Shown here: positions 14,284-60,668 of the stretch, piece by piece
Position numbering within the stretch: position 1 is the stretch's first letter
Layout: each line of letters starts with the position of its first letter
NCBI GenBank assembly: GCA_964016885.1
Contig: OZ024753.1
Span: 3,906,001 to 3,970,000 of the forward strand
Reading direction: 5' to 3'
Length of the DNA stretch: 64,000 nucleotides
Origin: Eledone cirrhosa
Taxonomy: Eukaryota
Made by a program: the position numbers and the translations under genes
The notes under the pieces: model-generated
What the model was told of the DNA's origin: nothing
The model's database searches: none
What the model saw: only the letters and a program-made list of their open reading frames with translations

Positions 14284-14322
14284 TGAACCTGAAGATTGCG
14301 AAAGCATGAAAGTACTTGTTCA
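14284..14322 (+). ncRNA. Minimal type I hammerhead ribozyme motif (PLE-type)
   Basis: TGAAC-CTGAAGA-T TGC GAAA GCA T-GAAA-GTAC-TT-GTTCA: 5-bp stem I, intact core, GNRA-capped stem II, palindromic stem III, CUU triplet. Confidence 0.8.
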
Positions 14323-14454
14323 ATTAACACTTAATATTCTACCATACTATTTCATTCTAATACCATTATACATTTTAAAGGATTGTAAATAAAACGAGTA
14401 AATCAGACAAAGTTGGAATTCCTTTTATTAATATATATATATATATATATATAT

Positions 14455-14603
14455 ATTATTTCTGAAGACGGCATATATGTGTGTTTGGTATGTATATTTA
14501 ATCTTGATAGTTTGTATAATTTTGTATAATTTTGTACATAGATCTGTTGAATATGCATGCCAATTCTAACACATATATATCCTAGAAACGATCGTTAAAT
14601 AAT
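14455..14603 (+). ncRNA. Type I hammerhead ribozyme motif with very long stem II
   Basis: ATTATTT-CTGAAGA-[116 nt; ATATATGTGTGTT/AACACATATATAT pairing]-GAAA-CGATCG-TT-AAATAAT; GUU triplet. Confidence 0.75.
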
Positions 14604-14660
14604 GAACTTTTTTTGTTTAATATAAGGAACTGTTTCATTGTTTTATTCATTATTTTTTTA

Positions 14661-14713
<53 letters not shown>

Positions 14714-15461
14714 GTTTAGATATCTATCCACTGGAACCACTGGTAGAAAAGAGATAATTTGCATCATTAATATAAATACTGAATACCTCCCCATTATATG
14801 TTGATTGTTTTTTTTTTTTTATTTCCTGTGTAAGCGGCTACTGTATGTATGTAAGAAAAATATTTCTACACGAATATGACCTGTGAACAATTGGCCCGAC
14901 ACATGTTTTCTATTCAATCTATTGTAAATACACGTAAAACATTACAACCTAAATAGTTACATAACTAGTCGTGTTTTCATTTCTACATCTCCCCATTTCC
15001 CTTCTTTACATAACTCCGGTACCCTTTCATAACATATCTTCCTATTTATAAATCTCCTGTTGAAATCATGGAATGAGAAGGAGAAGGAAAGAAGAATAAA
15101 AATGCAACAATACAAAAATTAGAACATTTCTTGAAGAGAATATATATATATATATAAATGCTATAAATTGCTGTTTTGTCTCTTGCTCCCTCCACATGAC
15201 AGCGCTTTGACTTGAGTCAGTAGCTGTGACCTCGGTTGGGCAAGCAGTAGCGATTGTATGGGTCGAAACAGACAAAGTTCATATCAACTGCTGTTGGCGC
15301 TGGAGATCTGTGTCTTTCATTTGTATGTATATTTTCAAAAAATAATTTTTTGTGGTTTCACTTTAAAAAAGTTTCATTCGTTTCGACTTGATTTCGTACG
15401 TTATGCTGTTCTTTTTTTTGTTGTTCTTTTTTTGTTGGTTATGTTGTTCTTTTTTTGTTGG

Positions 15462-15499
<38 letters not shown>

Positions 15500-15621
15500 A
15501 TAATAATAAATATGAAAACTAAAATCCAAATAGGGCTCATTAAGAATAATATATATATATATATATATATATCAAAATATATAAAACCATAGACCAAATA
15601 TTTATCAAAAAGGCAGATTAA

Positions 15622-15672
15622 AGTTTAAGCAAGGAATCGCTGCTTTCACCCTAAACGGGATCTTCTGAAACT
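15622..15672 (-). ncRNA. Degenerate type I hammerhead ribozyme motif
   Basis: Minus strand: AGTTT-CAGAAGA(U4>A)-T CCC GTTTA GGG T-GAAA-GCA..TGC-TT-AAACT; all three stems are present. Confidence 0.6.
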
Positions 15673-17407
15673 ATAAAAAAAAAAAAAAAAATCAATCTGT
15701 GGACGCAGAAGTAATATTTCGAAAACGTTGCAAGCGAAGGAAAACAGGAAGACGATACTTTGGTTGGTGAAGACGTTCCCTGGATATTTCGTATTCTTAA
15801 CAATTGAAAAGAAAATAAGGGACAAAAGAATTAAATAATGTCTGGCTTTGAATCTTGTTGCTACTACATATATACGTATTCAACAATATGACTAAAAAAG
15901 GATAGCAAGAACGAATCCAATCCAATTATACATTTCACGCATTGGATTAAGTCATAAAATTCTTCCCTTTATTTGCTGTTCTCCCAAATAATATTTCTTA
16001 TACTTTTTTATGTATTGGTCATCACATTTCTTATTCTTTCACTCATCTCGTTTCGCAGAGGGATGCTGGAATATTGTATGTAGGTAGGAAACAGAAAGGG
16101 TAAAATAGATCTCGTCAAAAGCGCGCAACTAGGATGGAATGCATAACTGTAGACTGTTTTCTATATAATAACTCGTTTTATATGAGAAACAAGAAAAATA
16201 ACACACATACCATTAAAAAAATAACAGAAAAAAATATCCAGAATTCTGACGGCGGAGGAATAATTTCTATCAATGAAAGAATGGAAACTGAAACATGATG
16301 CTGTGTATAATCTATATAGTCTTTACTTGCTAGATTTTGAATTCTCTGTCCGCTCCTCCTTGTTTTTATTAACAATTATTTCTTCATGATCTATCCTTCT
16401 TTCTGTCTATCCATGGAAAGATGTCAATGACATTCTGCACTTTTCTACCACCCCCCCGCCTCTATATCTATTTCAGCATACACATTCTCTAGCACTCGCT
16501 CTTTACCTCAACGTTTTGTCTCACCTACAATTGAAAGAATACATTCTTGTGACTTTTTCTGTCTAACTCTTTATTTATATCTATTGTTGTTATTTCATTT
16601 TTAGAATTGTTTCTATTTCCTTCGCCATTTTCATTGTATTCTTTGTCTGGTTTTAATCTCCAACGCCGTTTCTAGTATTTTCTCTCTCACATCAAACTTG
16701 TTTAATTCACACATATATTATCACACGCACTCATACACCCACAGTTTTCTAATTTTCACTTATTCTCTCCTACTAAGTTTCTCTCTCTCCCTCTCTCTCT
16801 TGTTAAAGTACTTGTATCTTTTGTAGCATTGCTCTAGTTGGAATTTAGAACTGGAATATAATAAAGTTACAAACGACGACGGAGTAAAACCCACAACAGG
16901 AGTAGCAGCAGCTGAGAAGAGAAAAAAAAAGAAAAAAAAGGAGAGAAACAGTGGGGGGGGGGGGGGGGGGCAGCGTATCACATGGAGTGGCACGGTGATG
17001 ATGAAGATTAGGGGAGTGAAGCAGTGAGAAGAAAATGAGGAGGACAGATAGGATGAGAATGATGAAAATGAAGGTGATGTGGTAGGAGAGATGGAGGAGT
17101 ATGAAGAAGCGGAGGTGGAAGAAATAATTCCGTTAAGTTGGCAGTAGTGGTGATATATAGGGTAGCAGGGCGGAAACGATGGGTAGAAAGTATTCCACGG
17201 GAATGTGTTAAATAATTAGGTCTCGAGGAGAAGCGGAAATGGTTATTGCTGGAAATGTTAGCTCTGTTGATTGTGATGATGATAATGATGAGATGCTGTT
17301 GTTAGTGGTGGGAGTGGGATATGTGTAGGAGATGGTAGAGAAAATGTTTGAAGTTAGCTGAAGAAAAGCGTGGATTACATTATTGACAGGTAGAGAGGTA
17401 AACCTTA

Positions 17408-17528
17408 CAGGCACGCGCGCATACATAATTATGTGTGTGTGCACGCGCGTGTGCGCGTGTGTGTGCGTGTGTGTGCGTGCGTGCGCGTGTTTGTGCGTGC
17501 GTGTGTGTGCGTGTGCGTGTGCGTGTGC
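17408..17528. repeat. (GT)/(GCGT) compound microsatellite
   Basis: Alternating purine-pyrimidine tract, directly visible. Confidence 0.9.
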
Positions 17529-17692
17529 AGGAGGTGAGTTTTATTGTAGTACAATAAAGCAATGCAGATATCGGATAAGAAGCACTCTACAGTTTGTAGG
17601 ACTGGAGTATACATAATATAATATATAAGATATATGTTGATTTAAAGCTGCACTATCCACAAGTGTTTTTTAACCTTCATACCATGTCTTCC

Positions 17693-17763
17693 TATTTTAT
17701 CTGATGAAAACACAAATGTTATTGCATGATAATATTTGTTTTTGAAATGCGCATAATAAAATA
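17693..17763 (+). ncRNA. Type I hammerhead ribozyme motif, intact
   Basis: TATTTTAT-CTGATGA-[AAACACAAATGTTAT/ATAATATTTGTTTTT stem II]-GAAA-TGCGCA-TA-ATAAAATA: 8-bp stem I, palindromic stem III, AUA triplet. Confidence 0.88.
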
Positions 17764-17919
17764 TATGGAACTCTTAACCATCTTTTGATCTTATATATAT
17801 ATATATTATATATATATATATCTTGTGCCAAATGTAGAAACAATTATATATATATATATATATACACACACGCACACACACAAATATTTATATATATATA
17901 TATATTTATATATATATTC

Positions 17920-17972
<53 letters not shown>

Positions 17973-17978
17973 AATATT

Positions 17979-18018
<40 letters not shown>

Positions 18019-18050
18019 AATATTTGTGTGTGTGTATGTACATATACATA

Positions 18051-18240
18051 TAATTGTTTCTACATTTGGCACAATGCCAGCAATTATCCCAGTGTATTAC
18101 TGGTACTTTAGTTTATCGACCCCGTAAGGATGAAAGGCAAAGTTAACCTCGGCGGGATTTGAAATCAGACCATAAAGGGACGTAACTCTTTGCTGCAAAG
18201 CATGGTGTCCGACCCTCTACCGATACTGCCAATCCACCAC

Positions 18241-18242: not shown

Positions 18243-18300
<58 letters not shown>

Positions 18301-18621
18301 TTATCTCTTTTCTTTTCCCTGTATTTTTGTACTTTATTATTTTTTTTATTACTTATTATTTCTGATCATGAGTAATACCCTCACTCATCCCTTGCTACCC
18401 TCTCCCAACCTCTTTATCATCGATTGCACCATTTAAGTGATACATTTTTGTTGTAATTTTTAATTTTTTAATTTTTAAGACGTTTTATGACATTATGTGC
18501 ATCATATATTTTGTCTTTTTCCATATAGCGCTGGCCTCGTGAACCCCCTGCTGGTCCTTTAGCCTTGTTCTGGTGACGCAGCTCGATGAAGCATGCAACT
18601 ACTGATATATTCATGTTTATA

Positions 18622-18668
18622 GGCTCTGATGACTCCTGCCATGATGTATGGATGAAACACTGTTAGCT
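18622..18668 (+). ncRNA. Type I hammerhead ribozyme motif, partly decayed stems
   Basis: GGCT-CTGATGA-C TCC TGC..GTA T GGA T-GAAA-CACTG-TT-AGCT then AATAAA (18669-18674); GUU triplet. Confidence 0.65.
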
Positions 18669-19140
18669 AATAAATCAATGTATTTCTAAGCACACTTTGG
18701 TTATTTCTATAATTATAACGGCTTTGTAGTATACTAGTTATCCTCTATTGATCTAAAACCACACTGTCATACCAAGGCCAATATATCTGCATGTCTGGGC
18801 ATATTGATATATTTGTCAATGAAATATATATATATATATATATATATATATGGAGAGAAAGTATTAGAGAGGTCTATAAATAAATTTATAAATGCGTGTG
18901 GGCTGGCATGGAGTTTGTAAGAGCAATATGGTGTGAAGGAAAGCCTCTGATATTCTGTCGAGATTTGGTTCCGATATCCGGTTACCGGTTAAGCTGTTTC
19001 CTTTCGAGAAATCTGTATCCTATTGGTTACGCTACGAAACCTGATAGATTGGTTACGCTACTGTGATTTAATCTTCGTTTACTATATGAAATATGTTTTG
19101 CACTTTTGTCTTGGAGAGAGAGAGAGAGAGAGAGAGATGT

Positions 19141-19256: not shown

Positions 19257-20772
19257 TGTAACATACATTATATAATTATTTATGTGCAATTTATAATTAC
19301 TGATTATCAACATTATCATTCATTTTACAAAATCTACCAGTGCTGAAGCAGAATTTGTACTGGTTCAGTTTACTTTCAAGGTATTGTATCAACATCACAT
19401 TTCATGAGCTACTTTAAAATGAATATGAGATATTCCTTTTTCTAATATTTTTAGTGCTAGAAAACCTCTCGAAATATCCCATCTCTCAATAAATACGTGC
19501 CAACAAAATATGGCGTGGATAAATTAGTAATTGCATGCATAGCGTTAAGAAATCTTATGAATCTTTAAGCATTTGTTGAGTTTCAAATATATGATTGTAT
19601 ATATGGGGAAAGGGCCAGGAGATAGCAATACAAGCGAGATGGACAGATACACATCCATACAATTGTGGGGAAAATTGAATATATAAACATTATTTATTAA
19701 TTGACAAGAAAGAACAGCCGTACTCCCACTGTCATCACCTCCATCTCTCTAGCCCTCCGCAGCTCTCTGTACGGTGAGCAAATGGGGTCCCACGTGCTGG
19801 CTTCCCGACAGCGCCGGCGCACAGAATGGAGAAGGCAGAAGCGCTGGAAGTGCCATTCCAACTCGTGAGGCTCACACCTGTTTTAATTTAAGTATTCTTA
19901 ACAATGGATATGATAAGATGTAATTTTAATTAATTCAAGATTTGTGAACATAGATGATACAACCTTAATGAATAAAACATGTATGTGATTGTTCGACTGA
20001 GATACAGCAGACTTCCGGCGTCGAAGTCGCTATCTTTTTCTTAAAATATGTCTCAAATGTCTACCATGCGTCCTGGAGGCGGTAGGTTGTTTGTTATCTT
20101 TTTAAAAATATTTGGTTATCAAAATGATGGTACGTCCCTGAGGACGAAGCGTCCTCGGTGCCGGGAAATACGGTATGTGCCAATATTTTTTTTAAAAGTG
20201 ATTTATAAAAGAAATAACAATCTTGGTGTTGTTTATGCATCGATTTTTAGAAGATCAAACATAAGATTAAAGATTTATACATTGTAATAATATATTTCAG
20301 TTCAATTGTGATAATATCAAACATCATTGCTAATCATACTTTTCGACTTTTAACGACTGGGCCAATGCACTGCCTTGGTTATATATCACTTAACATTAAA
20401 GTGACAAGAACTCTCAATTCCAACGTATCTAGATCTTCAAGAGCAACATCAGAGTCCATAGACCCTATCAAGAAATGACTTGCCCACATTCAATATCATT
20501 ATAACCAAGACAAGAAATATGGATATGATCACAAATATATACACACACAATATATATATACATAGAGAGAGAGAGAGATTGTTATACTTGGGGAGGGTCA
20601 TATTGTTATAATATTGCCAGAAATAATAACAGAACACACTCACTGTTTAGTTTGGGTTGGTTTTCGCTTCTGTATCTATATATAAATATAGTTATATATA
20701 TATACAAATGGAGTATTTCCGAAGGAAAGGTAAAGGAAAATAGAGTGATATATGTAGACTACAGAGCTTTTA

Positions 20773-20886
20773 AGTTATGTATTAAACAACATCAGATAAT
20801 TCATTTACCAAAGGTTTCATGAAGACAGACGTCTGTCTTCATGAAACCTTTGGTAAATGAATTATCTTATATTGTTTAATACATAG

Positions 20887-20888
<2 letters not shown>
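20773..20888. repeat. Spacerless palindrome (74-bp perfect core 20794-20867, ~116 bp with mismatches)
   Basis: AGATAATTCATTTACCAAAGGTTTCATGAAGACAGAC|GTCTGTCTTCATGAAACCTTTGGTAAATGAATTATCT. Confidence 0.95.
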
Positions 20889-20938
<50 letters not shown>

Positions 20939-21015
20939 CAAGATATAGATATGTCCCAAGGCTCTGATACCATCAACACCATAAACACAGAGCTGGCATA
21001 TCTAAGAACTGACTA

Positions 21016-21071
21016 ACTGCCTGATGAGGTCATAGCCATTCAAAAGCTATCATCGAAATATATATAGCAGT
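21016..21071 (+). ncRNA. Type I hammerhead ribozyme motif, intact
   Basis: ACTGC-CTGATGA-GGT C ATAGC [loop] GCTAT C ATC-GAAA-TATATA-TA-GCAGT then AAATAAA; AUA triplet, palindromic stem III. Confidence 0.88.
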
Positions 21072-21717
21072 AAATAAAGGTTATGAATTCATGCAATTGA
21101 CTTATGTTTCGTCACTATGTATATATATATACCTGCGATAGTTCTGTGTTATATGTAGGTATATGCGTACATTTCCTTATATTTACATTACGTAAATAAT
21201 ATACAATAAAAAAAAAATACTTTACACAAGTAAAATAAGGTCCAAGATGATACAACATGTAGCTAACATCTAAACACAAATTATGAATAGCAATCTAAAA
21301 CAAACTATAAACGCGGTATACAATGACATAAGATGGGTGCCAAATGCAGAAGTGAAACATACTTTGAATGTTGAATTAATGGATCATTTTTCTATTTCTA
21401 TTGAACAACCTATTCCTTCGTTGTTCCCACAATGAATGCTTATACACCCTTAACTGCTAATGCTTCATATAAAACTTATTATATTCGATACATTTCCATG
21501 TTATATATGAGAAGACCACACACCCACTTCTGTCATATATACCTACAAAGGATTGTTCTGACGAGTGCTATTATATTTATATACGTACATGCACAAACAC
21601 ATTCATACACGGACACACACATGCATGATCACACACAAATGTTTATTCATTTAAATATTTATAAAGGTGTGTGAACTTGTGCTTGTACCTATATATATAT
21701 ATATAGGAACGAGTAGG

Positions 21718-21813
21718 ACCCCGACGGCTGAGCTCAAGCCGTTTCGACGGCTAATTCTGGACTAAATGAAAATTTATATCCTGGTATATGAATAGCCGAG
21801 CTTCTCAGGGGGT
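21718..21813 (-). ncRNA. Type I hammerhead ribozyme motif with full stem III, altered core
   Basis: Minus strand: ACCCC-CTGAGAA-GCTCGGCTA...TAGCCGTC-GAAA-CGGCT TGAGCTC AGCCG-TC-GGGGT; GUC triplet; G8 is altered. Confidence 0.65.
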
Positions 21814-23238
21814 AATTCCATACATGGTAAAAGTGATTGTCACAAGGATTGGTCAAAAGTTTGTTGTTGAGACACATAATTCTATCATGGCAATTTGTGG
21901 GAAGAAGGGGTAGCTGAACCTTCCAGTAGAAGAAAGAGGGAGAGGGAGTGGAGGAATCCCAGTCGTGCGTTGATAGAGCCAACTACAGCAGGGCAGGAGG
22001 TCAAGCAAGTATACTAGGGAGGGGGAGGAGGAGGAAGTCGAAACAATAAGTAAATCAATATGGAGGAAATATATAGAAGAATACCAAGAATGTTAAAAAT
22101 ATAAAAAAAACAAAGGGAATAGTAACCAGAAAGTGTGTGTGAATGTGCGTGCGTGCGTGCGCGTGTGTGTGTTACTACATATTTACGAGGAGATGGTTGA
22201 AGCAGAGCGTGAAAGAGGAGGCAAAGGAAAGGAAATGAACGAAATGGAATAAAAGATAAATCAGAAACATCTATTGGTGAGTGATTTGCTATTTAAATCC
22301 GATATTACTCTCATATTGCATACATTTTTGTATATTTTGCTTTATTTCATAGCGTAAAATCAGATTCGGTGAAATTCATAGCAAATAACATATAGCGAAT
22401 TAACTAACTGGAAGTCTACTTCCTCGTTTCCAAAATGTATAGAGAAATAAGAAAATAAACTTATTGTACTGACTGTACAGTATGGAGTTTTATATATATA
22501 TGTTGTTTAAAGCCAATATAGTCAAATGAAATATGTGACCAAATCTACGACGGAAAACGTTTTACCAATTTTCGAGAACATATAATTTAGTAAAAGTGAG
22601 AATTGAGCAACAGTGTTAGAAAGTACAGTACACAATTTTCAAAGATGATATGAATAAAACACATTACATCAATGATGATAACTATCGGGAAATCTGCTAA
22701 CGAGTGTTGTTCTCTAGGTTCACAGGATCGGCTGCTATATCAGTGGAAATTATTTCAAATATATTAAGGACGCCTTAGATAATATAGCTATAGAGATGGT
22801 GGCTTCTCCATCATTTTACATTCTGAGCATTCGTATATTTGATATCCTGAATGGTTTGGTCACTAAATTAGACATCGAATTAGACAATTTTTAGTTTTCT
22901 GCTTTCCTCAACCGTTCACAAATGTGCTGCTAAAATGCCCCACACTTCTGGTTGAAATATGATGGCACGTGCCACCTGCGATCTACGATAGTGAAGTACA
23001 TCCTAATTTCCATGCTTCCAGTCAACAACTCGCAGCTCCGCTACTCGCCAGTCCACGACACGCAAACATATGTATCTTCGTTTTCCCGGTCATGTGAGCC
23101 CGTGTCGTTGCACGAACAATGCAACTTCGCTCCTATTTCTGCAAATTCTGTTGACGGCATTTCCGTTTAAGATGTATTTGATGAAGATGATCTGATAAAA
23201 TTCTCTTTTGAATCCTCCACCGTTACTACAGGACCCTG

Positions 23239-28242: not shown

Positions 28243-29362
28243 TGGTTGGTTGGTTGGTTCCTTCGTGAAGCACACAGAAACGAACAGGGACAATCGAAAA
28301 GTAAGCACAGGGTATACTGAGGAATGTTTAACGATACTCATTTTTTGTTTAAATCAAAAGAAGAAAAACATCCCAGGTATGCTAACCAAACCCACTGCTA
28401 TGTATAGCAGGTTGGGTGACAAACAAGCGATTCTCTCTACGCGTCCGTTATCAGCGATGCTCGTGTTTCGTGGCCAGCGTCTCCATGGAATCGAACGCTG
28501 ATTTTTACACACACACACACACACACTATTATACAGAACTAACTATGCAAATAAGACCGCAGACTGTCCTGACCTTTAAACAAACACATAGAATCTAGGT
28601 CAATACTGAAGCGAAGCCTAAATTAAACGCCTAAACCTAACCTCAAACACAATCCATTTAGCTGTTATATCAATTACCTAGATACACCCTTAAATCAATA
28701 AGTTACACTTATCCTTATATTCCATAAAACCAACTGTGGCCCGCGCCAACCACTGGAATGGGGAAAGCGACCGTTACCAAGCCGTCTTACATCTGCAACG
28801 ACTAGGATCCCATTATGTAGTAGAAAATGCTCATCGCTTTCTTTGATTCTACTGACAAATAAATCCTAATAAATTAACCACACCGATTCAAAATACAAAC
28901 CTTATAACCCCTGAAACGGCATGATGCAATGTACCTGGAAGTTTGCATCTAAAACGCCACAGCGCATACAGCACTATATGAAAATTCTAATGTATTATCG
29001 GTATAAATGAAATAATCCAAACTGATAAATACTACTTAAATATGATATCTAGATGCAATATAAAATTATGTACATTTTCCTAATCACATGACAGACATAC
29101 ATACACACAGGCATAGACACACACACACACATATATATATAAATAAACAAATAAACAAACACACAGACACCCGGATGTGGAGCATGCGCAGACTGAGCAC
29201 ACAACACACACACAGACACAAAATGGCGTAGGACAGAACAAAGGAGAGGCACAGAAACAAAGAAAGGAATCCTCAGTCACTGAAGAGGTCACAGAGTGTG
29301 TGACGAAAGAACTATGACTATATATAAACAACTATCTGGTTGTGGAACCAACCAACCAACCA
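28243..29362 (+). mobile_element. Putative Penelope-like element remnant with terminal HHR and inverted ends
   Basis: 19-bp inverted repeat TGGTTGGTTGGTTGGTTCC (28243-28261) / GGAACCAACCAACCAACCA (29344-29362); HHR at 29275; only faint GIY-YIG-like peptide scraps inside (GESDR, LEVCI, KPKLN). Confidence 0.45.
29275..29319 (+). ncRNA. Minimal type I hammerhead ribozyme motif
   Basis: AGTCA-CTGAAGA-G GTCACA GAGTG TGTGAC-GAAA-GAAC-TA-TGACT; CUA triplet; one extra G at the base of stem II. Confidence 0.75.
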
Positions 29363-30050
29363 GAAATTTATAAATTTATAAATTTATTATAAATTTATTA
29401 TAATAAGCTGAAGTGAAAGCAACTGGTGCGTGTGTTTCTTATTGGCAACATGACCCTCCCAAAGTATAACAATATATATTATATATATATATATATACTT
29501 ATGTAAATACAAACATAATTTGAAAGCGGTCTAATGGAGAATTTTAAAAATCGCAAGAGTTATCGTATGTATTCTTTCCTACTAAAATCGGCTTAATATA
29601 CGATAAGCTTGCAATCTTCCCATTTTCACCCGAAGGATTAAATAATTAAGGAAAACGGTGGTCATTCGGCCAAGAAGCATGCACAGTTACATATCCTTGC
29701 AGGATCCCACCATAAACTTGAGAGGAGGCTAATCAGAATGCCAGGAAAGAGATATCATGCTCCCAACGGTTCAACGAATACCAGTCGAGAGTGCCAATTA
29801 TTTACAACAGTATGTATAGATGTGTGTGCGTGTATACTTGTGTTTATGTGTATTTTGGTAGCAATGGAGAGAGAGGGAGAGAGAGGGAGGGAGAGAATGA
29901 GGAAATACAAATTTAGATGATAAAGTCCTTTATCAACAAAGGAATTACTCATCTAAACTTTGTATTTCCTTATTCTATAAATACTCCGTCACTTCCGTGT
30001 GGAAAATGCACGTTGAGCTCTCGAATAGAATGGCATCACTATCTTTACAG

Positions 30051-36900: not shown

Positions 36901-38156
36901 CATATGGCTATATATATCATTACTTTTTCATCCATGGATTTTTCCTTGTTAAACAACAACTACTCCTACTATTTCATATTTTGCTTGTTTCATATAATCG
37001 CGGCTCATTACTATATTTGATCATCATCATCATTGTCTATATCCCTATCACTAGCACCAGATACCATTTCGATCACTAGCTATGTCAGCGGTGTCACGAT
37101 GCCTTTCACAGTCGCTCCTGTCATCCTTATTACAACCACAACCATTAGCATTTTCACTACCATCAATATAATCCCTAAAACTATTACCTTTTGTATTACC
37201 AGGAAGAGAACCTCCCCTTCCTCTAACCCAGACACACGACTATCAGTAAAATCAGCAAGCATCTTAGACTCCACTTCTCATCCCACAACAATAACTACAT
37301 TATCTATAGTACATCTCATGTTTGCACATTCCACTCTTTCATTAATTCCTTGTCGTTTGACATTTAATATATATTCTCAATTGTCTTACATTTGTCGATA
37401 TCTTTATTACGATGCTTGTTAATGTTTTTGTTTTTATTATTGTTGTTGATACAATTGTACTCATAGTAAATATTGTTTTCCTTTTGTTGCTGTTGCTATA
37501 TATAAAGTGGTTATTATTGTTTCTGTTGCAATTCTGGTTACAGTTTTTTTAATCGATATAATTGCATATATAATAGATGTTGTTGTTATTGAAGTTATTG
37601 TTGCCGTTGTAGGTGGATTTTTTTATATAGTAGCTGTTAGTTTTGTTATTGCAGTTGTTGCTTCTCGCTGTGTTATTGATATTTCTGCAGTCATAATAGC
37701 CGGATTTGTTGCTGTCTTGTCACAGTTATCGTCGATATAATTCGTCTTATATAATTTGTTAATATTGTAGTTTTTTAGTGTATTTATTGACTTTCGTATC
37801 TGATTATCATTGAAACACTTCATGTGTATATATGTGCCTTCCTTATCTCCCAACTCACCATCTTGTTAAATATTTACCCTCGGGGCTTTAACTCCTTTCT
37901 GCCTAATCATATATGCATATAAATTATGGAGACATTGTTCTGACAATATATCAATATGTCACTTTACCTCTATACATATCTATCTGTCTCTGCGCGCACT
38001 CACACACATACATAAGTTTAAATGAATTAATACAACCAGGTAAAGGCGAAACTTCAAGGGTTATGTACACACAAATATATATATATATAGATGGATATAT
38101 ATATAGAGAGAGAATTGAAAAAGTGAAGAATAGCATGGTCAACAGTACAAAAAATA

Positions 38157-38266
38157 CAGTTTATGATGACATGATTGAGCTAAGATCGTAGTTGAAATTG
38201 AGTGGCACTGCTTCTAGTGTTCAGCAATTTTTAGACAACTTAATCAGAGAAACAATTGTTAGACTG
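38157..38266 (+). ncRNA. Type I hammerhead ribozyme motif (C3>A), enclosed by a 42-bp inverted repeat
   Basis: CAGTTT-ATGATGA-CA TGATTGAG...CTTAATCA GA-GAAA-CAATTG-TT-AGACTG; inverted repeat 38113-38154 / 38280-38321 with 1 mismatch. Confidence 0.72.
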
Positions 38267-40051
38267 AAAATACATCCCCTTTTTTGTACTGTTGACCATG
38301 TTATTCTTCACTTTTTCAATTTTATTACTCCAAGATAAACTTACATAGGAATACAAGTGAAATCATAAACTCGTCATCTACTCGTCATCTCTTGTTGAGT
38401 CAAACAACGCTGTACGCTAAAACTATCCATAATAAGAAGTATTCACAACCTCTAACTGGATTACCTATAACGATATTTAGTTATCCCTTATATATATATA
38501 TATATTAGATAAATACCATCGGACTGCTATAGAGGTCTATACTTTGTCGTTATTATTGTTCTTGTCCGAAGATAGATCAATTGCTGAATATCCAAAAGAA
38601 CGCCATAACTATAGAACGACATACTCTCAAACTAATAAGAAAAAGGGCAGGCAATTAGATAGATGGGAAACAGGTATTTGGGTAGATATATAGATAGGTG
38701 TGTATATAGCTAGCAGTAAATAACTTCATATCTAACTTCCGATTATTTTGTTAACGCTTTTTACTATAGCATACATACTATGTTATTCTTCCATGTTATT
38801 TATATATATATATAAATACACACTTACTTGCATTTCATAAATAACTGTTTAATTATTTCTCTAATCTGATCATCAATCATGATCTAACCGATCATTTATT
38901 TCTGAACAACCCCATTATCTAGTTGTCTCTACACCTGAGCTGCAACCAGCAGATATTTTTATTTCTGTTCACTTGGTCATCAAGCTGCACTCGTTGTCCT
39001 TATACTCTGACCAAAAATTGGATAACCCCTTTATTTGTTATATCCACAACCATCCTTTAGTTGCTCATGTGTCCTCGATCATGAAGCTTGTGAAAGTTAT
39101 TTTCTAATCCAATTCGCCAAAAACATCTCTTAAAACCCTCTAATCTTGATCTTCAAACATATCACCTAGCTGTTCAGGAACCCATGATCATCGAAGTGTC
39201 ATCAATATCTTCTTGTACTACTCATATTAGCATCTTTATGGGACTAATCCTGCACTCAAGATCTTCCAAAGCACCAACTTACTGCTCTCGTGCGCCTCTG
39301 ATCATAAAAAACATGTGGTAGTTAATTTTGTACTCCCGCTTTTTTTACATCATATAGATACAATTGTCTTTCCTAATTTCTAATCAATACTACCATTATT
39401 CTTGTCATCCATAGCTTATATCTTATATTCTATAACTTAGACTCCTATAATTTCAAAATATTCTTTATTCTTACTGTCGTTATTTTTGTTGATATAGTTG
39501 TGGTTGTTATCGTTCATCATCATCAAAATCATCTTATCTTTTTCTTCTCATATTCATTATTAGTATTATAAATATTATTAATGGTATTATTAGAGTTATT
39601 ATTACTTTTATTATTTTCATCATCATCGCCCTCATCTCCAGAAAATCCTTCATTTTCATTCTTGTTTCTCTCCTCTTTTTACTCAACTACCTCCGTAAAG
39701 TTTCTTGTACTTCGTTTTATTGTTGTTGTCGCCATCATCCCACTCCACTCCTTTCTTCATTTACATAATGTCTTCTTCATACATCCCATTCTCCATTCAA
39801 TTAGAGAAAATCGATAATAGAGAGAGAGAGAGAGAGAGAGAGCTAGTATGGGTGTGGGGTTACGTATCACTAGATCGACATCAGTTTCTTTTCCTCATAA
39901 ACCACCTAAATACAAAATGGAGAACCCACTCCCCTATAAAAAATCTCGCAAAAAAGCGAAAATTAATACAAACATCAACCACAATTACATGGATTCTCCT
40001 CTCGTCCTCTCTCTCTCTCTATACATATACATACATATATTTATATGTACT

Positions 40052-44400: not shown

Positions 44401-45378
44401 GCACTAGCATGCATATCAGAAACATCAAGATTAATATCAACCCCAGTCCCCCCACCCGATCAAGCCCTCAATATTCTGAATCCACCACATCATCTACCAA
44501 CACAAACCCCCATAAAACTACTACGCCGAGCCCTCCCCTCCACCACTACGGCCAATACTACCCCCCCCCCCCCAACAAGACATGCATGAAGATCATAACA
44601 TTCATGATTAGCATCGTAATCACAGCCAACAACGTCGTCAATGACTTCATCATCAGCATCATCATCATAATCAGCATCATCGTTATTGTCATCCTTCTCA
44701 ACATAATCAAAAACATCACTTTCAACCATGACTATCATCACCACCACCACCTTCACCATCATATCATCACTAGCACAACCCCCCCCCCCCTTCACCATCA
44801 ACACCACCACCACCACCACCCCCTTCACCAACACCATCATCACCACCACCCCCTTCACCACCACATTCTCCATGATCACCACCACCACCATCACTAACAT
44901 TTGCACCACCACCATCATCAACCCCTTCACCATCACCACCACTAACATTTCCACCTCTAGTTCAACAATTGACAATGATCATTAAAGGATTGTTATCTGT
45001 ACATGGAAAGCAACATTGACCAAACTGCAACAATATCTACAACTACAACATATAAATAACAACAACATCATAAACCGATTCAGATCCAACATCAAAGAAA
45101 TAATTTCAAGGACATATTACTCTTCCACCACCACCATCATCATCATCAATAGCATCATCAACATCATCAACATAAACAATAGCATCATTATCATCATGAG
45201 ACAATAATATCGGCAACGGCACCTTATATATATATATATGTAATATTAGGGATACTATTTATGGTTATGTATATACTAAAACTTTTTATAGTTATATATA
45301 TTTTAAACCCTAAAGAGTGAATGTCAGTAATTTATTACTACCTTATTACCAGTAAGATAAATAGCTCAATGTAATAAC

Positions 45379-45561
45379 TTTCTACTTTAGGCACAAGGCC
45401 AGCAATCAGCCAGTGCATTACTGGTACTTTATTTTATTGACCCCGTAAGGATGAAAGGCAAAGTCAACCTCGGCGGGATTTGAACTCAGATCGTAAAGGG
45501 ACGTAACTATGCTGGAAAGCATGGCGTCCGACCCTCTACTGATACTGCCAATCCACCGCCC
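45379..45561 (-). mobile_element. SINE, full length with 17-bp TSD
   Basis: TSD TAGCTCAATGTAATAAC at 45362-45378 and 45562-45578; B-box GAGTTCAAATCCC on the minus strand. Confidence 0.95.
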
Positions 45562-45725
45562 TAGCTCAATGTAATAACAACAGTTGTTCTACAGAGCAGT
45601 TAGCTTTGATTCTTGTGAATTCTATATATGTTCAAAGCATTTATTCACTTAACTGCCGAATGTATTTTAATTTTGTTTTAATTTTGTTTTAATTTTAATT
45701 TTGAATTTGAAATGCTATACAGAAA

Positions 45726-45897
45726 TAATTGTTTCTACTTTTGGCACCAGACCAGCAATTATCCCAGTGCATTACTGGTACTTTATTTTATCGACCCCGT
45801 AAGGATGAAAGGCAAAGTCAACCTCGGCGGGATTTGAACTCAGATCATAAAGGGAGGTAACTATGCTTCAAAGCATGGCGCCCGACCCTCAATCGAT
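45726..45897 (-). mobile_element. SINE, slightly 5'-truncated
   Basis: Same family as 45379; tail and central domain intact. Confidence 0.92.
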
Positions 45898-46007
45898 AAA
45901 TATATGTCACTCCACTGTACATCAATATATATATATATATATATATATGTATCTGTATGTCTCTTGCGTTGGAATGGAGGTCAATTATGTGTACAAACAT
46001 TGAAAAA

Positions 46008-46054
46008 TGCTCCGAAGAATCCAAGCCTAGGTTTGGATGAAACAATTGTAAGTG
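46008..46054 (+). ncRNA. Type I hammerhead ribozyme motif (U4>C)
   Basis: TGCT-CCGAAGA-ATCCAAGC CTAG GTTTGGAT-GAAA-CAATTG-TA-AGTG then AATAAA; 8-bp stem II, palindromic stem III, GUA triplet. Confidence 0.75.
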
Positions 46055-48151
46055 AATAAATGCTTTGAACATAGCTTTGATTCTTGTGAATTCTCTCTCT
46101 CTCTATATATATATATATTAATCGCCAATCATCGTCGTCATCGTCATCATCATCCTAATTGTCGTCGTCATCAGCAACATCATAATTGTCATCATCACCA
46201 TCATAATCATTATCATCCACAGCATCAGTATAAGTATCACCACAATAAAAACATCATCAATATCATAACCAAAATTACAGCCTGCATCATATTTATGGTA
46301 TTGATCCTCATCGTTTTTATCGTCGCGATCAATAGAATTATCACAGTTATCTTTATGTTCATTATATATGATAGACATCGGTATAATCAATTAACTATCG
46401 TAAATATTCTCATCTATACTCTCTTCGTCTTTGTAGACGTAGTGTTCATCTACAACAACAGTATTGTTAGTAAAGAAAACTAACGGTCACACAATGGAGT
46501 AAACACAGCGACAGGAAGTATATTAACAACAAAAACAGCAACCGAAACGACAATGGGAGAAATATCAACATTAGCAACAACATTTTCAATGTATTCATTT
46601 GTTGAAGCGTTAGAAAAAGTATCCAACAGCATCTGTTTTGCATTAATATCAATGCTTGATAGGTGAACAACCCCAGTAATACATAGTAAATACTGTCTAA
46701 CTCCGTATTCACATCCCAAAGTAGGTGAGAAGAAAATTATGCATAGATATATAAAGGATAATAAAGAAGTGAAGATTTACATAACTTAGTTCTAATCGCT
46801 AGAACGACTCAATATATTCTTTAGGTAATCTAGTTTGGGCATGCTGTTTAAATCTGAAGATTAGAGGTTTAATTACATAAAATTTACTTCATTAAAGACG
46901 CTCAAATAAAACACAAACATATCAATATATGGAAAAAAAGAACAGCAAATCTCTTGGGATCGCTTTGAAAATTATGAATGTTTTGGATAATATTGGATTT
47001 ATGATGAAGTCAAAGTTTCTAAGCTGGTCAGGTAAAATTTCAGAAAAGATAAATTTAATTTCTGTCACAAAATATAAGACCCTCGGACTGGGGTCTATTA
47101 CGCTTACATGTCCTAAACAATAACTAGAAACAGGATGAAGCGTCTATGGATTTGTGAAAAATATATTGCACATTTTTTAATAAACTGAATTAGCGGAAAA
47201 AAAATGTTAGTTATCGGCTACAACTGTTTTTTTTTTAAAATGCATATTTGATTATATTTAACCTTTCTAAGTTGTATACGATACATATACTCACATAGAT
47301 TTACAGCACCTCTATTTCCTATTATTTTGTGTCAACGTATATATACATTTTTTTCCTTTTCATACTTGAGTGGGATGGTCGTTTATTTTCCAAGATTTAA
47401 ATCTTTCAATGTTCGCAATATTGAAAAATATTGCTGCCTTCAGCTACAATCAGACATTGCAATGAGGATTTGGCAAACGTCCAAAATTGACTAATATTAA
47501 ATTGCAATACAGCACACCCAAATATTGTCTACAATACATTATAAACTATTAAGCATCTATATTGTATATCTTACTCTAAAGTGAACTATTGTTTAGCCAG
47601 TACTAGTACGTCTGCATGGCTAACATCAGGCTAGAGAAATATAAAATATAATTTCAGTCAAAACCCATAGAATCACACGAGTATATGTCGGCCTCAAAGA
47701 AGTGTAGGACTTAAAGCTTCAACGCATAAATATATATATTCAGGCACATATAAACACATACTGACAGGCTCATGAATATACGTGTGTATATATGCACACA
47801 CCAAAAGCTGCCCTACTTATTGAATTCCAACACACCCATATCCCCACACAAACAAAAATGGAGCCGATTCTTATATACACATCCATCATCTTAAATCACA
47901 ACAAACACACTATTAGTTGTCACGTCGTCAGTCAGAAGAGCATATTGATAACGGGGTCGGCTCCATAACAGACTATGATTCGTACAAAGTAGATGAAGCC
48001 AGGACATTTATTGCGCCAGTAAAGCGTTCAACTTTAAAAGAGCATTTAATTATTTTAATATTGTGCTAAGCGACCAGGAACGTGAAATCCACATACTGTG
48101 TTTCATCTGCATCACAACCAACTGGCTAGAATATGGATTACATTGGTCGCT

Positions 48152-49013: not shown

Positions 49014-49063
<50 letters not shown>

Positions 49064-49065
<2 letters not shown>

Positions 49066-53399: not shown

Positions 53400-53620
53400 T
53401 TATATTTGTTCATTGTAGCCGGCCTTCTGGAGAGCCACATTATAATAATCTGGTGGATTTAGAGTCGGACATCCTGGAGATTCTAAGAGACACATCTCCA
53501 TATATAGAGTGGATGATAGATTTAGAATGTTTTGAGTACCAAATGATATAATTTAGATTTTAAGTGATCTTGTGGAGGTGTTCAAATATGCCGGAGTTGA
53601 GGTCCAACGTCACATCTTAG
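53400..53620 (-). mobile_element. Possible Tc1/mariner-superfamily transposase scrap
   Basis: Minus-strand PGCPTLNPPDYY resembles the PxSPDLNPxDY motif; otherwise decayed. Confidence 0.3.
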
Positions 53621-56332: not shown

Positions 56333-56518
56333 GATTGGCAGTATCGGTGGAGGATCGAACGCCATGCTTTTCAGCATAGAGTTACGTCCTTTTACGACCG
56401 GAGTTCAAATCGCACCGAGGTTAACTTTGCCTTTCATCCTTACGGGGTCGACAAAATAAATTACCAGTAATGTACTGGGATATTTGTTGGCCTTGTGCCA
56501 AAAATAGAAACAATTATT
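56333..56518 (+). mobile_element. SINE, near full length
   Basis: GATTGGCAGTATCGG...GAGTTCAAATCGC...GCCTTTCATCCTTACGGGGTCGACAAAATAA...GGCCTTGTGCCAAAAATAGAAAC. Confidence 0.92.
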
Positions 56519-56599
56519 ATGTAATGTGTTACCAATAGAGAGAGAGCCGGTTTCTAACATAAACAAGACACTTTCATCGGAATTTAGACATCAACAAGT

Positions 56600-56707: not shown

Positions 56708-57909
56708 GTGTGTGTGTGTGTATGTATGTGTGGTTCTGTATGTTTTAAGTCATATGTGTACACATACATATGTTTTCAAACTCTCAACGTCTATATGCAG
56801 TTAATACAAGTAGAATATAAACAACTATCCTGGCCAAACTATTACTATATCCTTTGAGAGCGTCGTACCCATGTCAAAGTTTGTCATCATCCCATAGAGT
56901 TTCAGGTGATCCACAAATTGATTATGGGTTAGGTCTGTATTCCTGTCTTTCTGTGAGCCAATTTTGAATACTTCACATTTCCTGAGCAGAAAGGACAAGG
57001 GATTTAATGACAGAATAATTAGTAAGAGAAAGAGAGAGACTGTCTACTTGAAATATACCCCTGCGATATTCTATGTTAGCAGTGGAAATAGAATCCTCCT
57101 TCTCTTGTTTTAAATTTAGAAAATTAGCCGAAGAGGACGATAGGTTCTCTATGGCCATGATAATATATCCTCAAAAGGTGAGTCTTCTCTTTCGTAATTT
57201 TGCTCTCGATAAAAAGTAGCAATACATGTTTCTGTCAAACATGTTTATATTCAGAAGACCCTTGCCAAAACCTCTAATCAATAGCTTTGAGAAGGGCGTA
57301 GTGTCGGTGTGGTGGAAATCTAATAGTCATATAGTGGTGATTGGTAAAGCATCAGCTATTTTGGATCATATTGACAAAGTAGATTAGATGGGACGTTTAT
57401 GATTAAATTTCATATATATTAATCCCCTCTCCAACTACAAAATAAAGAATAAATATTCCTGTATACATCTGCGTTTTATTAGAATATATAAACGAAATAA
57501 TGCTACTGCAATAACACCAATGTATGATTCTAGTGAGAACTATGTATTCCATGAAAATCCTTTCAGTTCGTGTACTATAAAGCTATTGAACGTATAGCTC
57601 AAAAGAGAAAAATAGATCTCAAAAGATGCAACAGGTCGACTTTCAATTGAATACGATACAATTTTTCTATTCACTGAATCATTAGGAAGGCTAGAGTAAG
57701 AAATACTCTTAGGATGAGCACGCTTCTCATTAATTTCACTTGATACAGTATATTCCCTACGTTATATTGCAGGTCGCATACATGCATGCTACTATCATCC
57801 GGGGGGGGGGGGTACGTGTGCGAATACACATATATATAAATACACACACACATATATATAAATAGACACACACACGCACATATATATAAATACACACACA
57901 CACACACAC

Positions 57910-57938
57910 ATACAAATTTATATATATATATATACAAA

Positions 57939-57976
<38 letters not shown>

Positions 57977-58317
57977 AATTCATATATATATATACAAATT
58001 CACATACATATATATATATATACATACATACAAATTCACATACATATATATATATACATACATACAAATTCACATACATATATATATATATACATACATA
58101 CAAATTCACATACATATATATATATATACATACATACAAATTCACATACATATATATATATATACATACATACAAATTCACATACATATATATATATATA
58201 CATACATACAAATTCACATACATATATATATATATATACATACATACAAATTCACATACATATATATATATATACATACATACAAATTCACATACATATA
58301 TATATACATACAAATTC

Positions 58318-58354
<37 letters not shown>

Positions 58355-58358
58355 AATT

Positions 58359-58389
<31 letters not shown>

Positions 58390-58394
58390 AAATT

Positions 58395-58425
<31 letters not shown>

Positions 58426-58639
58426 AAATTCACATACATATATATATATATATATACAAATTCACATACATATATATACACAAATTCACATACATATATA
58501 TACACAAATTCACATACATATATATATATATATACACAAATTCACATACATATATATATATACACAAATTCACATACATATATATATATATATACACAAA
58601 TTCACAAACATATATATATATATATATATATACAAATTC

Positions 58640-58672
<33 letters not shown>

Positions 58673-60170
58673 CAAATTCACATACATATATATATATACA
58701 AATTCACATACATATATATATATACAAATTCACATACATATATATATATACAAATTCACATACATATATATATATATACAAATTCACATACATATATATA
58801 TATATACAAATTCACATACATATATATATATATACAAATTCACATACATATATATATATATATACAAATTCACATACATATATATATATATATACAAATT
58901 CACATACATATATATATATATATACAAATTCACATATATATATATATATATACAAATTCACATATATATATATATATATACAAATTCACATATATATATA
59001 TATATATACAAATTCACATATATATATATACAAATTCACATACATATATATATATATACAAATTCACATACATATATATATATATACAAATTCACATACA
59101 TATATATATATATATACAAATTCACATACATATATATACAAATTCACATACATATATATATACAAATTCACATACATATATATATACAAATTCACATACA
59201 TATATATATAAATTCACATACATATATATATAAATTCACATACATATATATATAAATTCACATACATATATATATAAATTCACATACATATATATATAAA
59301 TTCACATACATATATATATAAATTCACATACATATACAAATTCACATACATATACAAATTCACATACATATATATATACAAATTCACATACATATATATA
59401 TATATATACAAATTCACATACATATATATATATACAAATTCACATACATATATATATATAAATTCACATACATATATATATATAAATTCACATATATATA
59501 TATATATAAATTCACATATATATATATATATAAATTCACATATATATATATATATATAAATTCACATATATATATATATATATAAATTCACATATATATA
59601 TATATATAAATTCACATATATATATATATATAAATTCACATATATATATATATATAAATTCACATATATATATATATATAAATTCACATATATATATATA
59701 TATAAATTCACATATATATATATATAAATTCACATATATATATATATATATAAATTCACATATATATATATATATATAAATTCACATATATATATATATA
59801 TATAAATTCACATATATATATATATATATAAATTCACATATATATATATATATATATAAATTCACATATATATATATATATATAAATTCACATATATATA
59901 TATATATAAATTCACATATATATATATATAAATTCACATATATATATATATACAAATTCACATATATATATATATACAAATTCACATATATATATATATA
60001 CAAATTCACATACATATATATATATAAATTCACATATATATATATATATATACAAATTCACATACATATATATATATTCACATATATATATATATATATA
60101 TTCACATATATATATATATATATATATAAATCCACATACATATATATAAATCCACATACATATATATATA
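57910..60170. repeat. Minisatellite AAATTCACAT(AC)(AT)n, ~2.3 kb
   Basis: Fixed AAATTCACA core with a variable (AT)n spacer; explains the YVCEF/MYVNL ORFs. Confidence 0.97.
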
Positions 60171-60628
60171 AAGAAAGATGGAGATGTTACACAAATAGTT
60201 TATTCATTATAGTTTTTTCAACGGTTCTCTCTTGCATACATATATATATATATACACACATGCGTATATATATATATATATATATATATACGCACACGCA
60301 TATATATATATATGTGTGTGTGTATATAGGCATGTATATATGTATGCATGCGCGTATGCTTGGTGGATGGATAGATGTATTGCACTGTCAGCATGTCTAA
60401 AGAACCAAACACGATTATTGCTAATACAAAATGCAAGGACTTTCACAATTTAGAACGTATTGTAAGCTAGCAAAATATAGTTGTGAAGTCCGTAACTATA
60501 ACATTTGATGTGTACAGAAAAATAATTGCTGGACCGGCAATCCCTCTGTATAATCAGCTCCTGATTATTATTGGAATTTTATAAGAATCCAGCTACTATA
60601 ATTTTCGGCGGAAGCAGGAGTGTGCACT

Positions 60629-60668
60629 GTTCTGATGAACGTCAACCAGCGTGAAACAGACTATAAAC
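60629..60668 (+). ncRNA. Minimal type I hammerhead ribozyme motif, weakened stems I/III
   Basis: GTT-CTGATGA-ACGT CAACCA GCGT-GAAA-CAGACTA-TA-AAC; intact core; stem III probably derived from CAGACTG. Confidence 0.55.

What the first reader, a model, noticed from the sequence alone, without database searches (positions are those of the whole stretch)
14284..60668. Hidden population of 11+ diverse hammerhead ribozyme motifs (about 1 per 6 kb)
Seen: type I HHR folds (stem I - CUGANGA - stem II - GAAA - stem III - UH - stem I') at 14284, 14455, 15622(-), 17693, 18622, 21016, 21718(-), 29275, 38157, 46008 and 60629, with unrelated stem sequences that each keep their pairing. Several have a self-complementary stem III (GTAC, CGATCG, TGCGCA, TATATA, CAATTG twice). 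Established: minimal type I HHRs with palindromic stem III mark Penelope-like element termini and animal retrozymes, and cleave as dimers. Inference: many distinct PLE/retrozyme families have seeded this locus, and intact copies could cut any intronic or lncRNA transcript crossing it.
Basis: partly seen in the sequence, partly recalled or inferred. Interest (0 to 1): 0.85.

Follow-up and report, generated by a model that had tools for sequence, protein, structure and literature searches.

The report
Penelope hammerheads littering a whole genome
The eleven self-cutting-RNA motifs are real, but each belongs to a different common repeat family, mostly cut-off tail ends of known Penelope-like jumping genes and likely inert as single copies, and this stretch is an ordinary sample of a genome estimated to hold a few hundred thousand of them.

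Summary
All 11 motifs sit at the stated coordinates. Ten beat shuffled controls; the eleventh (60629) is a decayed copy of a family with a canonical core. Each belongs to a different dispersed repeat family whose copies end at fixed points in (TA)n. Five families are tied firmly, and two less firmly, to Penelope-like RT/GIY-YIG reading frames of the Hydra and Neptune/Nematis types. One looks like a ~315-nt non-autonomous unit, and three were not linked. The locus is not special. In 79 stretches elsewhere, 102 perfect-core motifs lie in 790 kb (shuffles 2.7), about 3-4 x 10^5 genome-wide, more than the largest count I found in print (axolotl, 126,247). The class, its (TA)n target and an octopus Hydra element with a hammerhead are published. 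Cutting of a host transcript is unsupported: no gene or RNA was shown, the copies are solo, and four have altered cores. One abundant family has a fixed U4A core change. The scan noted the same thing on other pieces of this genome (e1-8804474, e1-8665226).

The parts
14284..14322 (+). Type I hammerhead, canonical core, 3-bp stem II with U.U at its base, palindromic stem III; predicted cut after 14317
   Evidence: canonical core in 21 of 23 family copies
14245..14435 (+). 3' end (pLTR) of a Neptune/Nematis-type PLE between two (TA)n runs; the family has an optional 37-nt tail
   Evidence: 345-427 nt downstream of a GIY-YIG frame in 3 independent loci (L009/L188, L013, L011/L189); L189 shows inverted arm - pLTR - broken ORF - pLTR
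14455..14603 (+). Type I hammerhead with a 116-nt hairpin as stem II (predicted -42.4 kcal/mol), palindromic stem III; predicted cut after 14596
   Evidence: canonical core in 28 of 29 copies
14455..14669 (+). 3' end of a very young Hydra-type PLE (830-aa frame, tandem unit about 6.7 kb)
   Evidence: 97-100% identical copies; lies between successive ORFs in L261-L266; all 150 scored protein hits 100% identical
15622..15672 (-). Hammerhead-like motif with family-wide U4A core and a 4-5-bp stem III with a long loop; predicted cut after 15627
   Evidence: CAGAAGA in 32 of 34 copies; 0 of 46 canonical
15463..15783 (-). 3' end of an abundant older repeat, probably a Hydra-type PLE, including its tail
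   Evidence: a same-family Hydra-type GIY-YIG frame lies upstream in 2 loci, at 83 and 1012 nt; 13 copies in 790 kb
17693..17763 (+). Type I hammerhead, canonical core, palindromic stem III; predicted cut after 17755
17526..17805 (+). 3' end of a Hydra-type PLE (17632-17805) with an inverted tail arm in front (17526-17631)
   Evidence: two copies flank an 821-aa frame in L267; tail and inversion
18622..18668 (+). Type I hammerhead, canonical core, near-palindromic weak stem III; predicted cut after 18664
   Evidence: canonical core in 16 of 16 copies
18380..18824 (+). 3' end of a longer repeat with two fixed 3' ends; no ORF link found
21016..21071 (+). Type I hammerhead, canonical core, palindromic stem III; predicted cut after 21066
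20943..21131 (+). 3' end of a longer repeat in (TA)n; the family shows tail-bearing and tail-less arms back to back; no ORF link found
21718..21813 (-). Hammerhead-like motif with 56-nt stem II and a stable stem III; this copy has C3 opposite A8, most sampled family copies have the U3:A8 pair; predicted cut after 21723
   Evidence: U3:A8 in 43 of 63 copies, a sample weighted to the youngest subfamily
21703..22113 (-). 3' end of a Hydra-type PLE (784-aa frame, tandem unit 3531 bp)
   Evidence: homologous stretch downstream of the ORF in most of 30 loci and between ORFs in L225
29275..29319 (+). Type I hammerhead, canonical core, 2-bp non-palindromic stem III; predicted cut after 29314
29142..29479 (+). 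3' end of a Neptune/Nematis-type PLE
   Evidence: 151-175 nt downstream of a GIY-YIG frame in 11 of 33 copies; linker motif in L199
38157..38266 (+). Hammerhead with 79-nt stem II and palindromic stem III; this copy has C3A; predicted cut after 38260
   Evidence: canonical core in 8 of 13 copies
38113..38489 (+). 3' end of a repeat with a short inverted arm (38113-38154) and a long tail; no ORF link found
46008..46054 (+). Hammerhead with family-wide U4C core, 8-bp stem II, palindromic stem III, weak stem I in this copy; predicted cut after 46050
   Evidence: CCGANGA in 24 of 24 copies
45238..46104 (+). 3' end of a probably Hydra-type PLE (45900-46104) and its inverted tail arm (45238-45379, minus strand), separated by SINE-like inserts
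   Evidence: GIY-YIG frame ends about 1.0-1.2 kb upstream in 4 of 15 loci; tail arm
60629..60668 (+). Decayed hammerhead: canonical core, broken stem III, 3-bp stem I
60527..60817 (+). One monomer of a ~315-nt unit that occurs as partial head-to-tail repeats (retrozyme-like, non-autonomous)
   Evidence: period 312-317 nt in 4 of 7 loci checked

Best explanation
The 11 motifs lie in the 3' ends of 11 different dispersed repeat families; seven of these adjoin Penelope-like RT/GIY-YIG reading frames, and the other four are likely Penelope-type too. The PLE protein likely nicks (TA)n DNA and starts reverse transcription at one of two fixed sites a short way downstream of the hammerhead. Most reactions likely stop early, often leaving a second, inverted arm. 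Each insertion therefore leaves a 190-500-nt end that nearly always includes the hammerhead, which explains the density. The hammerhead is predicted to work, weakly, only in the tandem source elements, where two copies can pair through the palindromic stem III. The single copies in this window are predicted to be largely inert passengers. Shown: motifs, families, ORF links, fixed ends, inverted arms, genome-wide density. Inferred: the priming mechanism and all statements on cutting.
For: Every motif has genome-wide copies, with 520-5468 first-look candidates, which are not copy numbers. Firm ORF links for 5 families: 14462 between tandem 830-aa ORFs, 21808 between tandem 784-aa ORFs, 17701 flanking an 821-aa ORF, 29280 at a fixed 151-175 nt in 11 of 33 copies, 14289 in 3 independent loci. 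Weaker links: 46012 (4 of 15 loci) and 15667 (2 loci). Clade motifs: RWR/RWT, DKT/DKS and CxCx5C in three full ORFs, matching the Hydra definition in PMC8557442 section 11; Cx4CxxC linker in the other two. GIY-YIG over the Pfam cut-off for the 14289-linked frame. In most families the distance from the motif to the first TA-type run falls into a near and a far class, the PLE 'tail' signature (PMC11167929). Of 69 insertion events in the genome sample, 53 are single, 13 inverted pairs and 3 arrays. Stem III is a perfect palindrome in 58 of 102 real hits against 6 of 110 shuffle hits, though the descriptor does not require it; 27 of the 58 come from one family. Window density is ordinary for this genome.
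Against: 60632 looks non-autonomous. Private changes are rarer at the 11 core positions than elsewhere (24 of 3660 vs 409 of 37,849, Fisher p=0.013), so decay is not plainly neutral. I read this as selection inherited from unsampled source elements, but it does not exclude selection on inserted copies. Tails are often longer (up to about 200 nt) than the published 30-40 bp. Two of the Hydra-type ORFs gave no Pfam match at all; their identity rests on motifs and on homologues carrying PF26215. No cleavage or RNA data.
Confidence: 0.88

Rival explanations
1. Most of the motifs are non-autonomous retrozymes: short fixed-length units that cut themselves from multimeric RNA, circularise and are re-inserted by a borrowed PLE enzyme.
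For: 60632 occurs as partial tandems of 312-317 nt. True arrays exist elsewhere in this genome: 16 motifs at about 421-nt period in L345 and 311-nt period in L318. Published for other animals (PMC7229834; bioRxiv 2026.07.22.740005).
Against: Seven families adjoin ORF-bearing PLEs. 18626 and 21021 extend upstream by variable lengths, as truncated longer elements do. Only 3 of 69 sampled events are arrays.
Confidence: 0.07
2. The motifs form a locally selected set that cuts an intron or long non-coding RNA crossing this locus and so regulates a host gene.
For: 9 of 11 lie on the + strand (two-sided binomial p about 0.065, my arithmetic). 38163 and 46012 share the same stem III palindrome on one strand. 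Core positions carry fewer private changes.
Against: The density is no higher than elsewhere. The copies are of different ages, down to near-identical young ones. No host exon was recognised. The two copies with matching palindromes both have altered cores. The two motifs with a stem III stable enough for a monomer (15667, 21808) also have altered cores. Single minimal motifs did not cleave in vitro (PMC4209133).
Confidence: 0.04
3. The motifs are chance matches in AT-rich, microsatellite-laden DNA.
For: Rfam finds no hammerhead. Loose settings do yield chance hits: about 6-7 per shuffled window with one core mismatch allowed.
Against: 0 of 600 and 0 of 378 shuffles reach the observed counts. 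The cores are kept across family copies. Palindrome excess.
Confidence: 0.01

Closest known systems
Minimal type I hammerheads (min-HHR) in pLTRs of metazoan Penelope-like elements (Cervera and De la Pena 2014, PMC4209133; parts 1-2 of 4 read)
   Same: Type I order, short palindromic stem III, many families per genome, mostly single motifs from truncated PLEs, some opposite-strand pairs 100-700 bp apart, a U3-A8 core variant.
   Different: Counts given there are about 2,000 + 1,300 (Schistosoma), 4,000 (coelacanth) and 9,000 (Xenopus), against an estimated 3-4 x 10^5 here with a different descriptor. Stems II here reach 56-116 nt. U4A and U4C cores are fixed in whole families.
Hydra clade of PLEs, including Hydra-1_Obim of Octopus bimaculoides (Craig et al. 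2021, PMC8557442; passages, section 11 and supplement rows read)
   Same: RWK-like, DKT and CxCx5C motifs, C-terminal GIY-YIG, canonical hammerhead, (TA)n insertion.
   Different: The paper describes short (<3 kb) elements and few families. Here several distinct families have long 3' UTRs (tandem units 3.5 and 6.7 kb) and very young, identical copies. I did not align my sequences to Hydra-1_Obim; the likeness is by motif and by eye.
Neptune/Nematis PLEs (as defined in PMC8557442)
   Same: Cx2-5CxxC linker before GIY-YIG, and (TA)n preference, in the parents of 14289 and 29280.
   Different: Neptune and Nematis were not told apart (no tree built).
Poseidon element PAc of Anolis (Frangieh et al. 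2024, PMC11167929; main text read)
   Same: Two alternative 3' ends that define a tail, AT-rich targets, a hammerhead in the pLTR.
   Different: In PAc the ORF starts within the hammerhead. Here the first long ATG frame begins 185-360 nt after the cut site, and the tails are often longer.
Non-LTR retrozymes (Cervera and De la Pena 2020, PMC7229834, passages and section 15; Li et al. bioRxiv 10.64898/2026.07.22.740005, parts 1-2 of 5)
   Same: Short tandem units with a type I hammerhead: 60632 in the window, L345 and L318 elsewhere.
   Different: Ten of the 11 window families showed no unit-length tandem structure. The largest published count I found is 126,247 motifs in two families of the axolotl.

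Membership tests
Type I hammerhead ribozyme | Core CUGANGA, GAAA and UH in type I order, closed by three stems | tested here: met
   Fully met by 6 window copies (14289, 14462, 17701, 18626, 21021, 29280). Four have one core change and 60632 has a broken stem III.
Type I hammerhead ribozyme | Match to a curated Rfam hammerhead model | tested here: not met
Type I hammerhead ribozyme | Self-cleavage after NUH | not testable with these tools
   needs in vitro transcription
PLE minimal hammerhead | Short palindromic stem III that suits dimer formation | tested here: met
   6 of 11 in the window; 58 of 102 vs 6 of 110 in shuffles
Penelope-like element | Single ORF with RT and C-terminal GIY-YIG, flanked by the hammerhead-bearing pLTR | tested here: met
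   14462, 17701, 21808 with intact ORFs; 14289 and 29280 with broken ORFs
Penelope-like element | The same ORF link for the other six families | tested here: inconclusive
   partial for 46012 and 15667; none found for 18626, 21021, 38163, 60632
Penelope-like element | Tandem units, 5' truncation, inverted 5' arm, optional tail | tested here: met
Hydra clade | RWK-like motif, DKT, CxCx5C linker, (TA)n target | tested here: met
   RWR/DKT/CxCx5C in the 21808 and 14462 parents; RWT/DKS/CxCx5C in the 17701 parent
Hydra clade | Placement within the clade on an RT tree | not tested
Non-LTR retrozyme | Head-to-tail units of a few hundred nt, each with a hammerhead, no ORF | tested here: inconclusive
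   partial tandems for 60632 only; no unit-length tandem seen for the other ten (a test of low power because microsatellite masking broke many alignments)
Non-LTR retrozyme | Unit-length linear and circular RNA in tissues | not testable with these tools
   no RNA holder listed

The most novel reading that the evidence does not exclude
This genome carries more hammerhead motifs than any reported so far: roughly 3-4 x 10^5, one per 8-10 kb, from dozens of Hydra- and Neptune-type Penelope families that all target (TA)n. One of its commonest families (about 5 x 10^4 copies, extrapolated from 13 in 790 kb) spread with a fixed U4A change in the catalytic core. If U4A kills cutting, this is natural proof that Penelope elements multiply without ribozyme cleavage and keep the hammerhead fold for another job, such as binding the enzyme. 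If U4A still cuts, it is a new natural core variant.
Probability: 0.35. Interest if true: 0.6.

Novelty: new member of a known kind. Interest (0 to 1): 0.35.

Why it matters
The class is known, so the window itself is ordinary. Two things keep some value. First, the scale: a genome with a hammerhead every 8-10 kb means most long introns would contain several, so depletion of intact sense-strand copies in expressed introns can be measured with great power. Second, the role of the PLE hammerhead is still open: PMC8557442 calls it unclear, and PMC11167929 found cleavage not needed for insertion in vitro. Here young intact elements and whole families with U4A, U4C, U3:A8 or C3.A8 cores sit side by side as natural test cases.

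Tried and rejected
Rfam scans found no hammerhead family. A genome search with Pfam RVT_1 gave no PLE lead; I did not inspect its 30 loci beyond including them in later BLAST databases. The first PLE family followed (796-aa ORF) proved unrelated to the window motifs; no hammerhead was found beside it. Apparent ORF neighbours caused by a SINE translated inside one seed protein, and by the pLTR itself, were dropped before counting (seeds trimmed). Sequencing runs: no RNA holder listed. Laying four contig sets gave only 25-35-nt scraps for the two guessed-RNA runs laid, which is no evidence on expression; two other organisms (X9, X10) hold pieces of the 14462 family as contigs. Nineteen other CTGANGA sites were checked and none formed a further full motif. 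A repeat at 49007-49379 that looked hammerhead-like is a LINE-like 3' end. The upstream-extension test had low power. A five-copy hit in L336 is a satellite artefact among the score>=9 hits and is not in the perfect-core count. I did not look for the scrambled hammerheads that earlier notes report in this genome, beyond one look-up (nothing found). Literature searches for a cephalopod hammerhead count and for U4A found none, apart from Craig et al.; subscription papers, Lunse et al. 2017 (seen only as a citation in PMC6765202) and the closed bioRxiv supplements could hold such data.

Full report
Observation. The window is G000:C13:3906001-3970000, in a 3.0-Gb animal genome rich in (TA)n. It is probably an octopod. 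A descriptor for type I hammerheads with stem II up to 45 nt found 5 perfect-core motifs (14289, 17701, 18626, 21021, 29280) and, with one core mismatch, two more of score >=9 (15667-, 46012). None of 600 dinucleotide shuffles reached either count. Three more have long stems II: 14462 (116 nt, predicted -42.4 kcal/mol), 38163 (79 nt) and 21808- (56 nt). A long-stem descriptor, tuned after seeing them, finds only these three, and 0 of 378 shuffles reach three. The eleventh, 60632, is decayed, but 11 of 15 family copies carry the canonical core. Rfam models do not detect the motifs.

What they belong to. Each motif lies in a different dispersed repeat of about 190-450 nt with many copies across the chromosomes. 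Copies end in (TA)n, in most families at a near or a far fixed point. For the 14289 family the difference is a 37-nt tail, usually on an inverted arm placed back to back with the tail-less arm. The window shows such inverted arms at 17526-17631, 38113-38154 and 45238-45379. Truncation, inverted 5' arm and optional tail are the published signature of Penelope-like elements (PMC8557442, passages; PMC11167929, main text).

Link to the enzyme. Reading frames in the fetched flanks led to several PLE families. The 21808 family is the 3' end of a 784-aa element in 3531-bp tandems. The 14462 family lies between successive 830-aa ORFs in tandems of about 6.7 kb, and all 150 scored hits of its C-terminal 186 residues are identical, so it is very young. 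Two copies of the 17701 family flank an 821-aa ORF. These three ORFs carry RWR or RWT, DKT or DKS, and CxCx5C, the Hydra-clade marks given in section 11 of PMC8557442. That paper's supplement lists Hydra-1_Obim from Octopus bimaculoides with a canonical hammerhead and (TA)n preference. The 29280 family starts 151-175 nt after a GIY-YIG frame in 11 of 33 copies, and the 14289 family 345-427 nt after one in three independent loci; both parents have the Cx4CxxC linker of Neptune/Nematis. Links are weaker for 46012 (4 of 15 loci) and 15667 (2 loci). None was found for 18626, 21021 or 38163, although the first two extend upstream like truncated longer elements. The 60632 family is preceded by its own 3' end at a period of 312-317 nt in 4 of 7 loci checked, which fits a non-autonomous retrozyme-like unit.

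The locus is not special. I took 79 stretches of 10 kb at round coordinates on the large contigs (one of 80 requests failed). They are evenly spread but not randomly drawn, and small unplaced contigs were not sampled. They hold 102 perfect-core motifs (bootstrap 72-140) against 2.7 in shuffles, and a resampled 64 kb has at least 5 such motifs 77% of the time. Extrapolation gives about 377,000 motifs (263,000-521,000) in about 251,000 insertion events. This leaves out long-stem and variant-core families. The 125 hits of score >=9 fall into 35 clusters, about five of which are expected by chance and one of which is a satellite artefact. Published counts I read: about 2,000 + 1,300 minimal motifs in Schistosoma, 4,000 in coelacanth and 9,000 in Xenopus (PMC4209133), and 126,247 in axolotl (PMC7229834, section 15). 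The descriptors differ, so the comparison is rough. Searches found no cephalopod count, and a 2026 repeat annotation of Octopus vulgaris has no occurrence of 'hammerhead' or 'ribozyme' in its main text (PMC13282606).

How it likely works. In PAc the protein nicks AT-rich DNA and begins reverse transcription at two internal sites, and hammerhead cleavage is not needed for insertion in vitro (PMC11167929). By analogy, these elements prime at (TA)n and start copying a short way 3' of the hammerhead, so even the shortest products include it. Palindromic stems III (58 of 102 real hits vs 6 of 110 shuffle hits) point to dimer action in tandem source RNA. Single minimal motifs showed no cleavage, and dimers only low cleavage, in PMC4209133. 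In the sample, 53 of 69 events are single and 13 are inverted pairs, which cannot form a dimer on one RNA strand. All window copies are single on their strand. I therefore expect them to be mostly inert. This is inference; no RNA data exist here, and no host exon was recognised. Against a purely neutral picture, core positions have fewer private changes than their neighbours (0.66% vs 1.08%, p=0.013). Copies were chosen by similarity and are not independent, and changes inherited from selected source elements would give the same result.

Core variants. U4A is fixed in the 15667 family (32 of 34; 13 copies in 790 kb) and U4C in the 46012 family (24 of 24). The 21808 family splits into U3:A8 (31) and C3.A8 (19) copies, the window copy being the latter. 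U3:A8 is known from Schistosoma PLEs (PMC4209133) and elsewhere (PMC3088659, section 8). U4C is known from a viroid, where it lowers activity in vitro (PMC3088659, passage). I found no paper on U4A in one search. That U4A harms catalysis is my recalled expectation, not a call result.

Verdict. These are new families of a known kind, notable for number and for fixed core variants. Earlier notes of the scan reached the same picture on other pieces of this genome; I saw them only after and do not count them as evidence. Interest 0.35.

Noticed in passing
window 20690-20910: Two back-to-back arms of a twelfth hammerhead-bearing family, each keeping only the GAAA - stem III - UA half; together they form a perfect inverted repeat.
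   Followed up: partly
window 30336-30505 (-): Decayed 3' end of a relative of the 21808 family, with tail and the GAAA half of the motif, no core.
   Followed up: partly
window 53373-53808 (-): Broken fragment of a Hydra-type PLE reverse transcriptase (tblastn E down to 2e-9).
   Followed up: partly
window 61303-61812 (-): 169-aa frame that resembles the restriction-like endonuclease end of an R2/Dong/Hero-type non-LTR element (label recalled; no Pfam match).
   Followed up: no
window 9500-9612, 13330-13507, 18050-18240, 45379-45560, 45724-45898, 56333-56520: Many copies of one very abundant SINE-like repeat, often inserted into the PLE ends and their TA runs.
   Followed up: no
L345:279-9567 (G000:C28:110000001-110010000): Long head-to-tail array, period about 421 nt, with a canonical hammerhead in most units: a retrozyme-like satellite; its family gave 27 of the 125 sampled hits.
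   Followed up: partly
L318:8630-9683: Short array, period 311 nt, with an inverted first copy: a retrozyme-like unit with the PLE insertion footprint.
   Followed up: no
tails of the 17701 and 21021 families (L025, L041, L361-L375): The tails share a short similar stretch although the hammerhead stems differ; it may be a recognition site for the enzyme (seen by eye).
   Followed up: no
L217, L219-L228: A 796-aa Neptune/Nematis-type PLE family with a microsatellite-filled 3' UTR and no hammerhead found by my descriptors.
   Followed up: partly
window 41375-43953, 57840-60400, 62950-63950: Long simple and short-period tandem repeats that produce the apparent long reading frames and the strong GC skew.
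   Followed up: no
window 13510-13674: Repeat ending in a short hairpin and CTAG, like a Helitron 3' end (label recalled).
   Followed up: no
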